DNA of 64,000 nt from Vermamoeba vermiformis (Eukaryota): NCBI GenBank assembly GCA_045837725.1, contig JBEWZL010000048.1, positions 124,001-188,000 on the forward strand, read 5' to 3'. Under the pieces are notes generated by a model that saw only the letters and a program-made list of their open reading frames with translations, was not told the origin of the DNA and ran no database searches. This document shows, piece by piece, positions 31,306 through 61,740 of the stretch (position 1 is its first letter; the number at the start of each line of letters is the position of its first letter). The position numbers and the translations under genes were made by a program.

Positions 31306-32928
31306 ATGCTCTCCCGAAGTGTAATTCGTACTTGTTTCACTGCTTCCAAGCAACCTGCTCAGGTAAGCTCTAAAGAATGCAACGGCACATCGGCTTGGCT
31401 GTTGAAGTTCTGCTCTATTCTCAAAGAGGGCCGTATTAATAATATCTTACTATTTAATATCAGATCGCACGAAGCTTCTCTTTATTGGCACGTGCAGCCT
31501 CAACCAAGAGAACCACTCAAAACTCAGCAGTAAAATCCCAAAAGAGCACTTTCACTTTGAACTGGACGGCGAAAAAATCACCTACTCAATTATATTTTGG
31601 TTCATTTATTCAAAAGAACAATTATACAACAGCCGGTGGTGAGTTTGAATTTTTAATATTTAATTTTCAAAAATATCTCCTGCTTACGATTTCTTTCGTT
31701 ATTCTTGTGTGATGCATTCATAGGGCTCTTCATCAAATTTTGCAAGATATTTACGGGAGTAGTCAGCAGTAAAATTAATAATTGACCGTTGTGGCCTTAA
31801 TCCAGAATTCCACTTGGCTTTATAATTCTTTCAAACCAATACTCGTAAAAATAACAAACGATTTAATGGTATATTTATTGATGCAATATTCGCGCAGGTG
31901 CTGCCGCTCAAAAGTTGGATGTTGTCGTTGAAGGCGAGACTTACAAACTAATAGTCAAATTGCCCTCATCAACTGAGTCCTCCGTCTTCGTGCTTAAGCC
32001 CATGGAGACTGTTCGCGATCTCATTAATGACATTCGAGAGGAGGACCCTAAGGCCAACACAATTGTTTTCCACTACACCGATGGCCTCAGGTACGACACA
32101 TTTCTGGCCGTTTGCGTATCAAATGTATAATAACCAATGCTATAACTAGAGTCTCACACTCGACTACTATCGACGACTTGCTTAAATCAGAGTTCCATTT
32201 GACTATTGAAGGCACCAAGTACCACGTAGTTCCTCCCAAGGAAAAGAGTACGTACAACTGAGACTCACCACGCACGTGCGTCCACAGGCAAATTTACGGT
32301 GCAACTTTATTGCCGTAAAATTGTTCAAAGGGCGCTATATTCCTTCACCTTCATACGATGGAGAACAACAAGCTGACTATTTTGTTCTAGTCCTTGACAG
32401 CATCAACGAGAATGTGCTCAGTGTGATGGATTTGCGCAGTCTGATGCACAAGGCTTACTACCACAGAATCTTGCTCCGCTTAGAGTCGGATAAACGACAC
32501 CACATGCCCTACAGGTAAGCATCCTTGCTTTCGAACGAACCAGGCCTTGTTTTTGCGCGGCGACGGGTCAATAACGGCCGTTTAGCTCAGTTGGTTAGAG
32601 CATCGTGCTAATAACGCGAGGGTCCCAGGTTCGATCCCTGGAATGGCCAGTTTTTTTTTACATTTTTTACATTTTTTACATTTGGTTCGGGTGGCAGCGC
32701 TGCAGTACCTTCGATTGATTATTCGCACCAACTAAGCTGTCTGCTTTGACGCTATGTGGCGCAATTTTCAAATTTTGGGCGCTTCATTTCACGGCTGTGA
32801 AGGGATGAGCTCGAGAGCAGTAACTTTACCCATGTTGTTTCTGCTCGTTTGTTTTATTCTGCGCTTGTCTTGCCAAGTGCTTCGAGTTGGTTCCAAAAAC
32901 TCGGACAAGAAAAGCGAAGTGGCGCAGT

Positions 32929-32959
<31 letters not shown>

Positions 32960-33979
32960 CCAGGATCGAAACCTGGCTTCGCTAATCATTTTTTTGATTC
33001 TTGAAAATCAAACAACGAGCAATATGATGGTACTTCCATGACTATGAATTACTCATGATTCAAATTATACCGTTTGAGACTGATTGCTCAATTTAATTTT
33101 TTTGGTCAGGCCTGATCCAGGGGTCAACGTAACCTGATACTGATCCTTTTTTTTAGTGAGTACTTGGAATGGTGCCGTGAGTACGGCTTGAGCGACGAAG
33201 AATCACTCAACTTGGCGCACCACTTGCACGAGGTTGGATTGATCTTGCACTTCGCTGGCAACCCCGAGCTCAAGGACTACATCTTCTTGAACCCTCAATT
33301 GGTCGCCAACAGCATCACCAAGGCCTTGCAATTGCGCTACATCAAGTACGTACCAAGTTCAGTTATAATAAGAGAACGCAACTAACGATTACGCTGCAGG
33401 AAGGGAGATGAACTTAAGATGGCTGAATTGGAAGCAATCAAGCAGGAATTGGCTCCTTTGCACGACCTTAAATGTACGTAATAGCTGAATTGGAAGGTCG
33501 TGTAATAATGGTACTGGCACTAATACTGTATAAATATAGTGACTTACGACGAACAAGCCGATAACTACGGCCGTCGAGTCTTGTTGTGGTCCGGCATCTA
33601 CTTGGCCGCGCAGTTCTCTTTGCTCGCTCGTCTCGTGTGGGTTGAGTTCAACTGGGACATTATGGAACCGATCACTTACTTCGTCACCTTGGGCACAATG
33701 ATCTGGGGTTACACTTTCTTCACCTTCACCAAGACCGACTACAGCTACCCTGCCTTCAAGGACCGCATTGCTCGTCGCAAGTTGCGCGCTATCTACTTGA
33801 AGAACGAGTTCAACTGGAAGAGATGGAACACTCTCTATCAACGCGCCAAGCAGCTCGAAGACGAATTGGCTTTGCCTGTTGCTGAGCGATTCACCACTCA
33901 AGATCCCAACAAGACTCGCTTGCCTAAAGTCCAAGCCTCAGCAATCTTGTCGACTCCTGATGCCGTTCAAACGAACTAA
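31306..33979 (+). CDS. MCU: Mitochondrial calcium uniporter pore subunit
   Basis: Mitochondrial-type presequence MLSRSVIRTCF; two TM helices flanking WDIMEPITY selectivity motif; long intron 32515..33156. Confidence 0.93.
32576..32649 (+). tRNA. tRNA-Ile(AAT), inside MCU intron
   Basis: GGCCGTT..AATGGCC-A acceptor stem, D arm TAGCTCAGTTGGTTAGAGC, anticodon arm TCGTG-CTAATAA-CGCGA, GTTCGATCC T arm, followed by a T-run terminator. Confidence 0.95.
32913..32984 (+). tRNA. Initiator tRNA-Met(CAT), inside MCU intron
   Basis: A1-U72 pair (AGCGAAG/CTTCGCT-A), three G-C pairs in anticodon stem (TTGGG-CCCATAA-CCCAA), GATCGAAA T-loop typical of eukaryotic iMet; T7 follows. Confidence 0.95.
33017..33089 (+). 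ncRNA. Candidate box C/D snoRNA, copy 1
   Basis: Terminal stem GAGCAA/TTGCTC, 3-nt bulge then C box ATGATGG (33024..33030), D' ATGA (33044..33047), C' ATGATT (33055..33060), D box CTGA (33080..33083); 73 nt. Confidence 0.72.
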
Positions 33980-34118
33980 ACCCTCGAATCACTTGTTTTA
34001 TTATTCTTACACATGCACTAATAAAGTAAATACGATTATATAGACGACAAGTTTGGGTTTATTTGTGGAGTACAAAAGTTCTTTTGATTATCAACTACAA
34101 TTTACATTTCATATGAAG

Positions 34119-35279
34119 TTAGTTCTTGGTAGACTCACGGCCGACGAGGGAGGTGTAGATGTCATCACCCAACATCTTCACACGCATGCTGGTGCCCATC
34201 AACTTGGACCAGTAAACAGCACGCCACATCCAGTAAGCACCGAGACCAGTGACGATGGCCTTTGATTCTGAACCTCGCTCAACAAATCCGTCTTCAGCAC
34301 CGACGTATTCAAAGCCACCAATGTGCTTGTATCTGAAGGGTGTTCGCTCTGTGGGGTCCTCGTAATTGCACTCAGATCTGTTGAATGCTTTGGCCAAGAA
34401 TGCTCCTTGTTGAGCAGCAACTAATGGGCATGGATTAATATTATTATTCATAATACAATAGCGCTGAGAAACATACCAGCAGCGGTCGAGGGCAAGCGAG
34501 TCAATCGAGCGTCGAACGATCTCAACAGACCAGCAAACTCTTCGCGGTCCAAAGTGCCGTCCTTGTTAGTATCAGCTTGCACGAACAATTCTTTCGAGTT
34601 GTTGGCGACTTCAAAGAGAGCTGGGAATTGACGAGCCAAGTTCTTTACCAACGCTTCGTATTCCTCAACATCGACGCGACCGTCACCGTTGACGTCAAGC
34701 TTTTTGAAGATTTCCTAGCACGTGGTGTGAGTACTGATTGCAATTGACAGCGCGAGTACTTACAACAGCCTTGTTGATCAATTTGCCCTGATCAATAGTG
34801 GCACAGTCACCCAATGCCCACACGTCCTTGGCACCATTGACGGCGAGTGAGTTGTCGGTGACGAGGGCGCGAGTGTTGTTCTGGCCCTTCAGCTTGGAGC
34901 GCAGCATGTTGATGAGTGGGTGAGGAGCACCGCCAGTGGACCACACGCACAAACCAAACGGTAACTTCACTGTCTCTTCGGTCTTTGTCTCGCGGTTGAA
35001 TCGCTTCACTGTCACGCTGTCCTTATCGACGGCAACAACGTGCTTCGACTTGACTACATTAACGCCCTTAGAATGGTGGTGCAAAGCCATGTCTGTGGAA
35101 ACAAAAGTCAAGGAAAACCAGATCTGGATCAGATCAAAAAAAATAAATCGAGCAATCAGTCTCAAACGGTATAATTTGAATCATGAGTAATTCATAGTCA
35201 TGGAAGTACCATCATATTGCTCGTTGTTTGATTTTCAAGAATCAAAAAAATGATTAGCGAAGCCAGGTTTCGATCCTGG

Positions 35280-35310
<31 letters not shown>

Positions 35311-36794
35311 ACTGCGCCACTTCGCTTTTCTTGTCCGAGTTTTTGGAACCAACTCGAAGCACTTGGCAAGACAAGCGCGAAAAGTTTGAATAAAGGATAC
35401 ATTCACTAATTGAACGATCGTAGAAGTTGTTGATGTGCTCCTTGGTCGAGACTAAGGTAACATTAGCAGTTTCAGCCAATGAAGGGAATTGTGGTTTGAG
35501 ATCTTGGTCGATGAATTCTGTTCGTGCACTGAGATTAGTAGTCGGCTCTAACATGTCGTCGAAAATGTGCATACCATGCAGGTTATGGGCAATTTCATAG
35601 GCGACAGGACTGCCTCCAACAATGACAAAGTTCAACAGCTTCTTCTTTTCCTATTGTTTAATACTTGCGTGTCAATAACAAATCCTTGGCTGTCATATTC
35701 TCCTCTTATAATCAGCTTACATCGTCAGATACGTTAGGCAGAGTGGCCTTCTCAAAAGCATCAATAACTTTCTTCTTAATGTTCTTCGCGTCTAATCATA
35801 TGATCGTTAATGAGCGTTATGCGGGCAATAATCTCTGAGCACGTACCTTGAAGGTCGCGCAAAAACAAAGTGTTCTTTTCAACGTCTTTCAGTCCTAAGG
35901 TGTTTGGTACGGAACCAACAGCAATGACGAGCTTGTCGTAATTGACAGTGAAGTCCTTGCCCTCAGCAGCTGTATAAATACGTAAATGCTAATGCCGAAT
36001 ATAACGATGCGCGATATTTCGTACTTTTGCATGTAACAGTCTTCTTGTTGATATCAATGTCAGATGCGCTGGCTTCATAGTAGTTCAAAACTTTGTTATT
36101 TCGCTTAGCAAAAGTGCGAATAGGCTCAGTAACGCTAAAATAAAATATAAATCAATATTATAAAATTTACCAAGATATTTTTGCCCTTGAAACCGGATTC
36201 GTTCTTTAAGTGATTTAAAAATTAAAACGTACCTTTCAGTAGTTGTGGATCCAACAGTGACATCGGGGAGACCAGGAGTGAATAGGAAATAATTTCTAGG
36301 AGAGACAACGGTCACATCAAACATGTAAGTGTTGATATTTCCAGCCATCGACAAGGCACCCCAGCCAGAGCCTAAAATTACGAGTTTTTGTTTGTTTGAT
36401 CCTGCATCTTTTTGTTTCAAACTGCTCTCTAAGGCCAAGCAAGTGTTAATAGCGGTATGGAAATCCAGATTGAAAAAACTTACCGTGCACATATTCGACT
36501 CCTTTATACACCAAAAAGCTACCACCAAATATCGACACAACTACAGATGCCTTTTCCAGATTGGACCACTTCTTGGCAGTGCGGCTGTTATTGAAAATTA
36601 AAAATTTAATTATTTATTACCTAATTATCTAAATAATGAATGATCAATACGAATGTGTATTGCAATATTATGTAATATTTTGTTGCCAATCAATAATCAT
36701 TTTTGCTGCATGTGAAGTATTACCCTGCGTTGGTGCGAGATTGCAGTCTCGTAGCAGTTCGCGAGCTAAGGAGCAATTTGCTGATTCTAAACAT
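34119..36794 (-). CDS. Type II (alternative) NADH dehydrogenase with EF-hands (NDB-like)
   Basis: Presequence MFRISKLLLSSRTATR, LVILGSGWG, VVSPRNYFLFTP, YDKLVIAVG, FVIVGG, WALGDCAT, EF-hands (ADVNGDGRVDVEEY, ADTNKDGTLDREEF), PFRYKHIG. Confidence 0.9.
35150..35222 (-). ncRNA. Candidate box C/D snoRNA, copy 2
   Basis: Identical to 33017..33089; the stem extends by one more C-G pair here. Confidence 0.72.
35255..35326 (-). tRNA. Initiator tRNA-Met(CAT), inside NADH dehydrogenase U12 intron
   Basis: Identical to 32913..32984. Confidence 0.95.
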
Positions 36795-40183: not shown

Positions 40184-41235
40184 ATGAACCACTTCCATTT
40201 GTTGTTCGTTACTTTATTTTGTTTGGCAATTGCTGTCTCAGTAATTCCCTCACGAAAGAGTGTTTCAATCACCAACGAGTTTCCCAAGGTGGATATTTAC
40301 TCAAAGAGGTAAGCGTTGGATTAGCAAAAAACGCACGAATAATGCTGTATTTATCTTAATAATTATCGCTTACAGTAATCAGCACTCATATTCTTTTTTA
40401 TCATATATTTATTGTACTAGTAATTATGTTACAAAGATACTTAGATGCGGAGCTGATTTGATCAAAGGCGTTCGAAGCTCTTTTCGCCCTTTATTTTGTT
40501 TATAGAAACATTGAACGTCGAAAATATAATACGGCGAATAAGCACCAATAACGTCTGAAAATATGACACTTTGTTCTGATCGACTTTCTGCCGCAGATCC
40601 GTTCTTGGAGCTGAAGAAGTAAGCCAACACAACAGCGCCTCATCCTCCTCGTCGAGCTCTTCTAGCAGCTCATCAAGCTCGTCTTCGAGCTCCTCTAGCT
40701 CTTCGTCATCATCGAGCTCCAGTTCGAGCAGCTCTTCATCGAGCTCGTCTTCTTCCTCTTCCTCGGGTTCCTCTGCTCGTCGAGCTCATCTTCTAGCTCT
40801 TCGTCTTCATCTTCGTCCAGCTCTTCTAGCAGCTCTTCATCAAGCTCGTCTTCGAGCTCCTCTAGCTCTTCAAGCTCATCATCTTCATCGAGCTCCTCCT
40901 CCAGTTCAAGTTCCTCATCGTCTTCTAGCTCTTCGAGCTCCTCGTCTTCATCGAGTTCGTCATCGAGCTCCTCATCCTCTAGCTCCAGTTCAAGTTCCTC
41001 ATCGTCTTCCAGCTCTTCAAGTTCATCGTCCTCTTCGAGCTCCAGCGGTGAATACTTCAACTAGAAAGTTTGCTCGAACTTTTCCTTCGTTAACTGTACT
41101 TCTAATTACCAATTGACACTGTACTTGTGCTAATAAATTCTGTTTTTAACAGTACTATTGGTTCATTCCAGCGATGACGTCACTGGCAAAAAAAATGATC
41201 CGTTTTCGATAATTCTGTTTATTTTGCTAACTTAA
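40184..41235 (+). CDS. Secreted, probably GPI-anchored poly-serine protein
   Basis: Signal peptide MNHFHLLFVTLFCLAIAVS, intron to 40596, about 135 near-pure Ser codons; an optional intron 41049..41152 yields hydrophobic end PFSIILFILLT*. An alternative unspliced stop lies near 41063. Confidence 0.65.
40640..41047 (+). repeat. Low-complexity poly-Ser coding tract (mixed TCN/AGY codons)
   Basis: Directly visible; the antisense acidic ORF 40695..41060 is its shadow. Confidence 0.9.
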
Positions 41236-59021: not shown

Positions 59022-61740
59022 CATGTTGCACCATAAGGATTTATATGCTTACAAAAGACCAAAAGGTACGCCACGCGGCCAATTAAATATGCCAGATCTG
59101 ATTCTATTTTATTCAATTATTCTTCTTATATTCGATTACAAATGATAATTAAAGTATTATTAATCACTATGATGTTATTAGGTGTGCATAAAGTTTTCGG
59201 CTTGGATTTGGAAATTCTTTGCAAAGCAGAACGACGCCACTGCCCAAAACTTATTATATGTATCATAGATTATCTAGAGCAAAAGTGTAAGTCGAAAATC
59301 GGAATTATTTGTTTAATTGAAATTGAATTGGATCGTTCAACAAAATCCGAACGAAATAACGAATTTCGTGTTTAAATAAGAGTTTAGCAATAAGAATCGG
59401 CACAACTTCGCATAATTAATTGTCCGTTATGCTCTCGTACACTTATCGAGCGAGGTTAATATCAATTTCAGCGAGATTTAATATAAATTTGTTGAAGGTC
59501 TCGATGAGGAACGCCTCTTGGCTCAACCTGGAAATGTGGCCCAACTAAAGGATGCCGTGGCCAAAATTAACAACGGTAAGTTGTCTGGAGGCAATAGGGG
59601 CGATATGTCGTTTCGTTAAATTAACGCACGGAATTTCGGAATCTAACGAACGAACGGGCAATGACCCACTCCTCTATCCAAATCTAACGAATTATAATAA
59701 AGGCAATCGTATCAAGTTTGAAGATTTAGGAGCGTACACAACGGGAGATCTGTTGAAGAGATTCTTGTCCGAACTGCCCGTGCCTCTCATCCCGAAAGAA
59801 ACATTCAAGCGCTTGACTGAAATCAAATCTGACGATCCAAAGCGCGAAGAAGAAACTATTGCAGTACTGCAGACATTGACTCATATTCAAGCTGCGACGT
59901 TGGAAGTCGTGTTGCAGATGTGCAAGTAAGCCTCCGAACTAAACAATGTGTCTCTAATTCTAACGTGACTTTGTAGACGAGTGACAATGCGCAGTGGCAC
60001 CAACAAGATGGACTGCAACAAATTGGGGCTAGTCATGGTTCCAGCACTGATGCCCTATGTCACTGACGTTGAAGCACAATCACTGACGCAGAGTCGTGAT
60101 GCAGTGCTCAAGGGCAATGAACTGTTCGAATATCTCGTGCCTGAAGTGGAGAGTCTGTTCAAGTGGGTACGTAGATTTATCGTCGGTCGTCATTGGCTGT
60201 CGTACTTACATGTATGTCAGAACACTCACCACCAGAAGCGATTGAGCACCAAGATCAACAAATTGAAGCACTTCAATAGACTCGCCGCTGCCCCTAATAC
60301 GCCCAAGCGAGGAGTGCGCATCTTGGCGCTGGACGGTGGAGGCATGCGTGGTCTGTCAGAACTCACCATTCTCTCGCACATTGCAAAGAAGTTGTACGGC
60401 GATAATGGACCTGAAAGCACTAAGGTAACGCATTTTACCTTGAAGAATTGACTCCGTGGATCCGAGACGGTGATCTGGTGCAGTATTGTTCGTACGGCAA
60501 GTAGTGACCCGAACACGCAGTTGAAAAGCGTCTCGGGCACGACCACACTAACAAGAATGCACCGCTTCCCGTCCGATCAGCGAAGTTAAGCTTGTTCAGG
60601 CCTTCTTAGTACTGGGGTAGGAGACTACCTGGGAATCGGAGGTGTTGTGCTCTTCTCTTTTTTGCTTTTGCTCCTCTTACCTGCAGTCTGTGCTGACTCG
60701 CTCTCTTTTTAGAAACTTGTCGCTTCATTCGACTTGATTTGCGGCACTTCTACCGGCAGTATCGTGGCCATGTCGCTGTTGAAGAACTCATTGAAGGACT
60801 GCGAAGACTTGTACTATAACTTGGGCTCACAAATCTTCTACAACTCGTATTTATACGCCACAGGTCGCTGGTGGCGATACTACCGCAGCGGCGATTACTA
60901 TGACGGCGAATCACTCTACAAGCTGTTCAGTGAAAACTTTGGCTCCGACATGATTGGCGAAATGTTCGACGCCAATGCCCCTCAAAAGGTAGCTAGTTCA
61001 TTGTGTAAACAATCATCGCACTTTAACTGACTTTATTTGCAGCTGTTTGTCACCGCGACAGATGCTACCAGTGACGTGTTCGATCCAGTGTTGTTCCGCT
61101 CTTACGAGAACAAGAACAGTCACGTGACTGGACACTCTAAAATCTCCGCACCACAAGCACTTCGCGCTAGTTGTGCAGCCCCTACTTACTTCTCTCCGTT
61201 GGTACTCGACGAACACAATTACATGGACGGTGGATTCATCTACAACAATCCCACTGAACTCGCCATCTTTGAGGCTCATGCTTTGTGGCCCGATCGTCCT
61301 ATTGAGTGGTAAGTCTATAATCAGTGGTATTCATATTCATAAGGCTAACAACATGTAGTATTGTTTCGGTTGGTACTGGCTTGCCTAAACCCAACCCTGG
61401 CTCCGAGAACGTGCTGTCACTGCTTGGCGAGATCATCGATATCTGTACCAACAGCGATGCTATTCACAAGCGAGTCTTGGCGTGGTTGGACTTCTTGCAG
61501 ATCAAGCCCAGTTATTTCCGCTTCGATGCCAATCCACCCATTGGCTCTCTCAGACTTGACACGGGTGACAAGCCAACACTCGAACAAATGTGCGCACAGA
61601 CCGAGGCCTATATGAACGAAGCTAAACAGACCTCTGAAGTTGAACGTCTGATGCAGATCTTGTCTGGTCAGCGAACTGGCTTCCTCACTGAGAACACTGT
61701 AAATAATACGAACAACACGAATGTGAATAATGCCAACTAA
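59022..61740 (+). CDS. RhoGAP-like domain + patatin-like phospholipase
   Basis: VFGLDL..CPKLIICIIDYLE, LLKRFLSELPVPLIP, NKMDCNKLGLV; patatin motifs LALDGGGMRG, GTSTG, ALRASCAAPTYF, DGG. Confidence 0.85.
60535..60653 (+). rRNA. 5S rRNA gene inside intron 60425..60712
   Basis: 119 nt; helix I GGGCACGAC/GTTGTGCTC, conserved CCCGTCCGATC..GAAGTTAAGC, TTAGTACT..GGAGAC..CCTGGGAA motifs; T-run terminator immediately downstream. Confidence 0.93.

What the first reader, a model, noticed from the sequence alone, without database searches (positions are those of the whole stretch)
32861..35378. Identical inverted duplication of the cassette into introns of two convergent genes
Seen: the 229-bp block is present twice in inverted orientation, about 2.06 kb apart, each copy sense to its own host (MCU on +, NADH dehydrogenase on -). 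Flanks share only decayed similarity (atttaattttttt..ctgatccag vs atttatttttttt..ctgatccag) and I see no target-site duplication. Inference: either a recent duplication/insertion of a mobile RNA-gene module that favours introns in sense orientation, or homogenisation by gene conversion. Recombination between copies would invert the spacer and swap the 3' halves of the two genes across incompatible introns (U2 phase 2 versus U12 phase 1).
Basis: partly seen in the sequence, partly recalled or inferred. Interest (0 to 1): 0.7.

Follow-up and report, generated by a model that had tools for sequence, protein, structure and literature searches.

The report
Local tRNA–snoRNA copy between neighbouring introns
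In a free-living amoeba, a short block holding a tRNA gene and a small ribosome-modifying RNA gene was copied from one gene's intron into the neighbouring gene's intron; such local copying of tRNA genes is common in this genome, so the case is real but fairly ordinary.

Summary
A 229-bp block is identical at 32861-33089 (+) and 35150-35378 (-), 2060 bp apart, at about twice flank depth in a DNA run. It is an initiator tRNA-Met gene with its terminator, followed by a box C/D snoRNA whose D' guide pairs with the organism's own LSU rRNA. It lies sense in a U2 phase-2 intron of MCU and a U12 phase-1 intron of an NADH dehydrogenase; both splice. The genome is Vermamoeba-like. The block has only two copies and no hallmark of a mobile element. 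A diverged relative keeps it in the MCU intron, so that copy is old; the NDH copy is probably derived. It belongs to a genome-wide class: 27 of 396 same-family tRNA pairs lie within 12 kb (0.22 expected), in all orientations, usually sharing flanks. Best reading: local DNA-level duplication of a tRNA gene with a hitch-hiking snoRNA. Recent origin versus later gene conversion is unresolved. No inverted allele was seen, but the data could not show one.

The parts
31306..33979 (+). Host gene 1: mitochondrial calcium uniporter (MCU) with a COR-A-like segment
   Evidence: tblastn with relative P0001; Pfam MCU and COR-A
32515..33156 (+). MCU host intron, U2-type GT-AG, 642 nt, phase 2; holds tRNA-Ile, tRNA-iMet and the snoRNA
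   Evidence: splice joint skipping 642 nt in X21 and X24; sequence
32576..32649 (+). tRNA-Ile(AAT) gene, not part of the duplicated block
32861..33089 (+). Copy A of the 229-bp block (probable donor); likeness continues to 33107 with 3 differences
   Evidence: orthologous block in L014
32913..32984 (+). Initiator tRNA-Met(CAT) gene; T7 Pol III terminator at 32989-32995
   Evidence: A1:U72 pair, A54/A60 T-loop and three G-C anticodon-stem pairs seen in the sequence (identity rules recalled)
33017..33089 (+). Box C/D snoRNA, copy A: terminal stem, box C 33024-33029, guide 33032-33043, D' 33044-33047, C' 33055-33060, D 33080-33083
   Evidence: fold; guide pairs with own LSU rRNA near 1348-1361; boxes and guide kept in L014 while other parts change
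34120..36500 (-). Host gene 2: type II NADH dehydrogenase-like gene with an EF-hand-like stretch (ends approximate)
   Evidence: translation; Pyr_redox_2; spliced contig of X24
35093..35400 (-). NDH host intron, U12-type GT-AG, 308 nt, phase 1; donor GTATCCTTT at 35400, branch motif TTCCTTGAC at 35115-35107
   Evidence: joint in X21 and X24; U12 snRNA gene in genome
35150..35378 (-). Copy B of the 229-bp block (probable insertion)
35255..35326 (-). Initiator tRNA-Met(CAT) gene, copy B
35150..35222 (-). Box C/D snoRNA, copy B, ending 57 nt before the 3' splice site

Best explanation
This is a local, DNA-level duplication of a tRNA gene that carried a neighbouring snoRNA along. Shown: the MCU intron has long held tRNA-iMet plus a single-guide box C/D snoRNA; a stretch of about 230-250 bp of it is also present, inverted, 2 kb away in the U12 intron of the convergent NDH gene; local same-family tRNA pairs with shared flanks are common in this genome and occur in all orientations. 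Inferred: the direction is MCU to NDH; the copying is repair-templated (strand invasion or template switch onto a nearby stretch), not retroposition; the tRNA is made by Pol III from its internal promoter and stops at the T7 run; the promoterless snoRNA is cut from the host pre-mRNA intron, so copy B can work only because it landed sense in an intron; it guides 2'-O-methylation of LSU A1354 (own numbering). The perfect core is either youth or later gene conversion, about even odds. An inversion between the copies would break both genes and is probably rare and selected against.
For: Two copies only. The relative L014 keeps tRNA, boxes and guide in the orthologous MCU intron but differs at 22 of 54 columns of the 5' flank and 15 of 32 of the spacer, so the identity of the two window copies there is not due to constraint. 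Removing the block from the 308-nt NDH intron leaves 61-79 nt, close to the 49-66 nt of neighbouring introns. 27 of 396 same-family tRNA pairs lie within 12 kb, against 0.22 expected; 13 direct, 8 divergent, 6 convergent; 44 of 132 genes have such a neighbour. 19 of 21 hand-picked local groups share at least 35 nt of flank, with about 6% mismatches pooled. In 7 of 29 scanned loci one gene brackets the tRNA by Pfam: 6 sense, 1 antisense. Nested tRNA and snoRNA genes with tRNA turnover are described in nematodes (PMC3342880, passages).
Against: The NDH intron of a relative was not seen: L014 ends 47 nt into it, so direction and age rest on parsimony. All 3 differences sit in the last 18 nt and none in about 110 free sites, which a single copying event does not explain well. 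This pair has the longest perfect flanks among the pairs compared (52+105 nt; others at most 69+12 or 63+23). No expression or methylation evidence for the snoRNA; an 11-nt perfect match arises in 59 of 2000 shuffles. The copying mechanism was not tested. The tRNA census is partial and the pairs were picked by hand; one pair (C30, C306) may be the same locus assembled twice.
Confidence: 0.78

Rival explanations
1. An older duplication whose core is kept identical by ectopic gene conversion between the two inverted copies. This refines the best explanation rather than replacing it; it differs on age and upkeep.
For: 3 differences in the last 18 nt and 0 in about 110 free sites (about 0.02 by chance as computed for two differences, smaller for three). 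At the first difference the NDH copy matches L014 and the MCU copy does not, so change has occurred since the duplication. Allele classes in X1 differ in both 3' flanks while 32958-33073 is one contig. 3 of 10 other pairs have 63-69 perfect nt next to the tRNA and differences further out.
Against: The boundary was chosen after the fact and borders a T-run where slippage is common. Pooled over 10 pairs, mismatch density shows no clear rise with distance from the tRNA (0.09, 0.05, 0.12, 0.07 per site in the first four 25-nt bins). A branch at about 33074 suggests homogenisation is not complete.
Confidence: 0.4
2. A mobile RNA-gene module (SINE-like or snoRNA retroposon) that inserts into introns in sense orientation.
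For: Both copies are sense and intronic; tRNA genes carry internal promoters; tRNA genes in this genome do spread.
Against: 2 copies only. No target-site duplication, A-tail or terminal repeat seen. The block includes DNA upstream of the tRNA and beyond its terminator, which a Pol III transcript would not contain. Other iMet copies lack the snoRNA. Many different tRNA genes show the same local pairs with variable ends.
Confidence: 0.06
3. A recombinational switch: the inverted copies flip the 2-kb spacer and turn MCU and NDH off together, or make chimeric transcripts.
For: The layout resembles the engineered yeast intron-based inverted-repeat assay, where 350-bp repeats reorient a segment (10.1101/519397, passages). 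The phases and spliceosome types differ, so a flip would break both genes.
Against: No strand-changing joint listed in 4 runs; normal joints in X21 and X24; the same gene order in L014. Convergent pairs are not in excess (6 of 27). These data have little power to show a rare flip.
Confidence: 0.03
4. An assembly artefact (one copy false, or identity produced by polishing).
For: The assembly differs from both allele classes at 33119-33121, so it is imperfect next to the block.
Against: Block depth is about twice flank depth, the unique contigs run up to or near both copies, and 32958-33073 is one contig.
Confidence: 0.03

Closest known systems
Nested (intronic) tRNA and snoRNA genes with birth-and-death turnover in Caenorhabditis (PMC3342880; passages read)
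   Same: Many tRNA genes (43%) and snoRNA genes (78%) lie in introns there; tRNAs are gained and lost without changing the host; promoterless snoRNAs depend on the host intron.
   Different: That paper argues snoRNAs rarely duplicate successfully because they need the host locus. Here a snoRNA moved with a tRNA into another gene's intron, a U12 one, in an amoeba.
tRNA gene turnover and clustering by duplication in Drosophila (PMC2997554; passages read)
   Same: Same-anticodon tRNA genes cluster, and individual genes are gained and lost.
   Different: Here the copies sit in introns of unrelated neighbouring genes, share about 110-450 bp including the tRNA, and take any orientation.
Plant dicistronic tRNA-snoRNA genes (Kruszka 2003; seen only as cited in PMC8351944)
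   Same: A tRNA gene directly upstream of a box C/D snoRNA on the same strand.
   Different: A T7 terminator follows the tRNA here, with longer T-runs in L014, and the unit is intronic, so one Pol III transcript is unlikely.
Dictyostelium box C/D snoRNAs (PMC8817022; passages, section 20 and supplement searches)
   Same: Amoebozoan C/D guides of similar size, some for lineage-specific LSU sites.
   Different: All but one are intergenic there. The guide motif was not found in the supplement text (figures are not held as text), and no ortholog was identified.
Yeast intron-based inverted-repeat recombination reporter (10.1101/519397; passages read)
   Same: Inverted repeats inside introns whose recombination would reorient the segment between them.
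   Different: That is an engineered reporter where flipping creates a gene. Here flipping would break two genes, and none was seen.

Membership tests
Box C/D snoRNA | Box C near the 5' end, box D near the 3' end, terminal stem | tested here: met
   C 33024-33029, D 33080-33083, 7-bp stem; kept in L014
Box C/D snoRNA | Antisense element of 10 nt or more to rRNA next to box D or D' | tested here: met
   12-nt guide (11 Watson-Crick pairs plus one G-U) abutting D' pairs with own LSU; unchanged in L014. The arm before box D has no rRNA match and varies.
Box C/D snoRNA | Expressed as a stable small RNA; target ribose methylated | not testable with these tools
   RNA run X21 gave depth under 1 there
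Box C/D snoRNA | Member of a described Rfam snoRNA family | tested here: not met
   Only sub-threshold hits, E 2.4-7.2
Mobile element (SINE, snoRNA retroposon or non-autonomous DNA transposon) | Many dispersed copies | tested here: not met
   2 copies; the genome search gives lower bounds for repeats
Mobile element (SINE, snoRNA retroposon or non-autonomous DNA transposon) | Target-site duplication | tested here: inconclusive
   None visible, but no empty allele is available
Mobile element (SINE, snoRNA retroposon or non-autonomous DNA transposon) | Ends that match a transcript (5' at tRNA start, A-rich tail) or terminal inverted repeats | tested here: not met
   Block starts 52 nt before the tRNA and ends in a T-run
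Plant-type dicistronic tRNA-snoRNA gene | No Pol III terminator between tRNA and snoRNA | tested here: not met
   T7 at 32989-32995; T6 and T9 runs in L014
Plant-type dicistronic tRNA-snoRNA gene | One precursor transcript, cut by RNase Z | not testable with these tools
   No small-RNA data
U12-type intron (NDH host intron) | GTATCCTTT donor, TTCCTT(A/G)AC branch motif near the 3' end, minor spliceosome present, spliced | tested here: met
   (consensus motifs recalled)
Interlocus gene conversion pair | Paralogs more alike within a strain than each is to its ortholog in another strain | tested here: inconclusive
   Only the MCU copy of a relative was obtained; differences cluster at the edge
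Invertible DNA switch | Both orientations present in the population | not testable with these tools
   No long reads; no strand-change joints
Invertible DNA switch | Dedicated recombinase | not tested
   The window was not searched for one

The most novel reading that the evidence does not exclude
tRNA genes in this amoeba act as carriers in a frequent local copy-paste process. Here one delivered a promoterless snoRNA into a minor (U12) intron, where it is expressed, and the resulting inverted pair flips often enough to give a heritable two-state switch of the calcium uniporter and the NADH dehydrogenase.
Probability: 0.04. Interest if true: 0.75.

Novelty: new member of a known kind. Interest (0 to 1): 0.3.

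Why it matters
It shows a simple route by which a host-dependent snoRNA can gain a new host gene: riding on a duplicating tRNA gene into a sense intron, here a U12 one. The wider pattern (44 of 132 tallied tRNA genes have a same-family neighbour within 12 kb) makes this genome a convenient place to measure local duplication and conversion of Pol III genes. I found no paper describing it for this amoeba (searches; most subscription journals are not in the library). The single locus is not surprising in itself.

Tried and rejected
Orientation bias: the first eight pairs I looked at were mostly convergent, but the wider tally gave 13 direct, 8 divergent, 6 convergent; rejected. A codon model to call host strand around tRNAs leaned sense but was too weak for short exons; replaced by Pfam bracketing, which decided only 7 of 29 loci. 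A target for the arm before box D: no match of 10 pairs or more in own rRNAs; it varies in L014; treated as non-guide. Known orthologs of the snoRNA: Rfam none; guide motif absent from two supplements as text and from a full-text search. A second structured RNA at 32660-32860: z 0.19 and -1.84, no second copy, no Rfam hit; an 11-nt SSU match there is unexplained and may be chance. A decayed tRNA-Ile in L014: the alignment did not support it. A relative's NDH intron: L014 too short; X24 and X15 were spliced or partial; pattern scans of prokaryote genomes and viral contigs found nothing. Earlier findings of the scan: none.
Full report
Observation. The exact inverted match is 229 bp, 32861-33089 against 35378-35150, with 2060 bp between. 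It extends to 247 bp at 99%, with 3 differences in the last 18 nt. Contigs of DNA run X1 show depth 728 inside the block against 316-409 in unique flanks, so there are two real copies; X1 may be the source sample. X1 also shows two allele classes (about 1 to 2.5) in both 3' flanks. The contig inside the block stops at 33073, which hints at a variant there.

Organism. The genome is 43.3 Mb in 309 contigs. Its SSU rRNA contains the site of a primer used for Vermamoeba vermiformis (PMC12300931, one passage). I treat it as Vermamoeba-like.

What the block is. It holds 52 nt of 5' flank, a tRNA-Met(CAT) at 32913-32984 with initiator features (identity rules recalled), a T7 terminator, a 32-nt spacer, and a box C/D snoRNA at 33017-33089. 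The snoRNA has a terminal stem, boxes C, D', C' and D, and a 12-nt element abutting D' that pairs with the organism's own LSU rRNA. By the fifth-nucleotide rule (recalled) the target is A1354 in own numbering. An 11-nt perfect match occurs in 59 of 2000 shuffles, so conservation carries the weight. In metagenome contig L014 (about 77% DNA identity, same gene order) the tRNA is unchanged, the stem-C-guide-D' stretch differs at 1 of 31 columns, and C' and D-stem at none, while the 5' flank differs at 22 of 54, the spacer at 15 of 32 and the 3' arm at 7 of 20. No Rfam family reaches threshold.

Hosts. Copy A is in the 642-nt U2 intron of MCU (32515-33156, phase 2), behind a tRNA-Ile. Copy B is in the 308-nt intron of an NADH dehydrogenase-like gene (35093-35400, minus strand, phase 1) with a U12 donor and branch motif. 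A U12 snRNA gene is present. Both introns are spliced in a diverged strain (X21, X24).

Copy number and direction. The whole block and the guide-plus-D' motif each occur twice in the genome. Three further identical tRNA-iMet genes lie on another contig, beside tRNA-Ala, with different flanks and no snoRNA. L014 has the block in the MCU intron, so that copy is old. L014 ends 47 nt into the NDH intron, too early to show copy B. Removing the block from the NDH intron leaves 61-79 nt, near the 49-66 nt of neighbouring introns. MCU to NDH is therefore inferred, not shown.

It belongs to a class. I tallied 132 tRNA genes in 25 families from two pattern searches (82 rows; 100 of 129 rows), leaving out singletons and the tandem-array families and assigning families by eye. 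27 of 396 same-family pairs lie within 12 kb, against 0.22 expected; different-family pairs gave 14 of 8250 against 4.6. Orientation was 13 direct, 8 divergent, 6 convergent. One pair may be a locus assembled twice. Of 21 hand-picked local groups, 19 share at least 35 nt of flank, at about 6% mismatches pooled. The window pair has the longest perfect flanks. For host strand I scanned 146 of 157 candidate ORFs from 29 loci; in 7 loci one gene brackets the tRNA, 6 sense and 1 antisense, and 22 were undecided. The window's 5S gene also looks intronic and sense. Intronic, mostly sense placement and local duplication are thus traits of Pol III genes here.

Mechanism. The copy includes DNA outside any Pol III transcript and shows no A-tail, terminal repeat or visible target-site duplication. 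I infer DNA-level copying from a nearby template during repair or fork restart. tRNA genes are described as fork barriers (PMC6733944, seen only in a search listing); the link is my inference. The tRNA carries its own promoter. The snoRNA lies behind a terminator and most likely comes from the host intron, ending 67 and 57 nt before the 3' splice sites. A sense landing in an intron is what would let copy B work.

Recent or converted. For conversion: 3 differences in the last 18 nt and none in about 110 free sites; at the first difference the NDH copy keeps the L014 base. Against: the edge was chosen after the fact and borders a T-run, and other pairs show no pooled rise of mismatches with distance. 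I leave it near even.

Inversion. Recombination between the copies would join a U2 phase-2 donor to a U12 phase-1 acceptor and the reverse, breaking both genes. The layout recalls the yeast intron-based reporter (10.1101/519397, passages). No strand-changing joint was listed in the 4 runs laid, but contigs cannot bridge the repeat and X21 had 162 reads on the stretch. It is untested rather than excluded.

Comparison with the literature. Nested tRNA and snoRNA genes and tRNA turnover are known (PMC3342880 and PMC2997554, passages; PMC13578239, two passages). Plant tRNA-snoRNA dicistrons were seen only as cited in PMC8351944; the terminator argues against membership. Dictyostelium C/D genes are nearly all intergenic (PMC8817022). 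No ortholog of this guide was found; supplement figures are not held as text and could hide one. Searches for this pattern in amoebae found nothing relevant.

Verdict. Real and correctly described, but a new instance of known processes: local tRNA gene duplication with a hitch-hiking intronic snoRNA. Not a mobile element. Interest 0.3.

Noticed in passing
G000 C56:17324-22431 (L084), also C175, C209, C217, C243: Tandem arrays of roughly 80-bp units, each with a short palindrome, a Pol III B-box-like motif and a T-run; ARAGORN calls no tRNA. Possibly a SINE-like or small Pol III RNA family.
   Followed up: no
G000 C3:557169-557955 (L085): Three spaced copies of a short hairpin with a B-box-like motif and T-run, separated by CAT-rich simple repeats.
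   Followed up: no
L060-L062 (C211) and L056:2193-2263: A third kind of tRNA-Met(CAT)-like gene, unlike both the initiator and the elongator, some copies with a poorly paired anticodon stem; one copy is antisense in an intron.
   Followed up: partly
L056:1585-2674: A cluster of tRNA-Asn, tRNA-Ile, a Met-like tRNA, 5S rRNA and a truncated local inverted copy of tRNA-Ile(TAT).
   Followed up: partly
window 60535-60653: 5S rRNA gene lying sense in what looks like an intron of a protein-coding gene.
   Followed up: partly
window 33158-33343: The MCU protein carries a COR-A-like segment before the MCU domain.
   Followed up: no
L009 (G000 C11:679063-681372): SSU rRNA gene is 2310 nt, with an insertion of several hundred nt that looks like a group I intron (by eye).
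   Followed up: no
G000 C309:24147-65480: Organelle-type rRNA and tRNA genes present twice as a large inverted repeat; could be real or an assembly effect.
   Followed up: no
L014:4741-4787: In the relative's NDH intron a U12 branch-like motif sits directly against the 3' AG, unlike the 15-nt spacing in the window.
   Followed up: no
window 32726-32736: 11-nt perfect complement to own SSU rRNA in the middle of the MCU intron, without clear snoRNA boxes.
   Followed up: partly
window 40634-41042: Low-complexity repeat region, probably coding.
   Followed up: no
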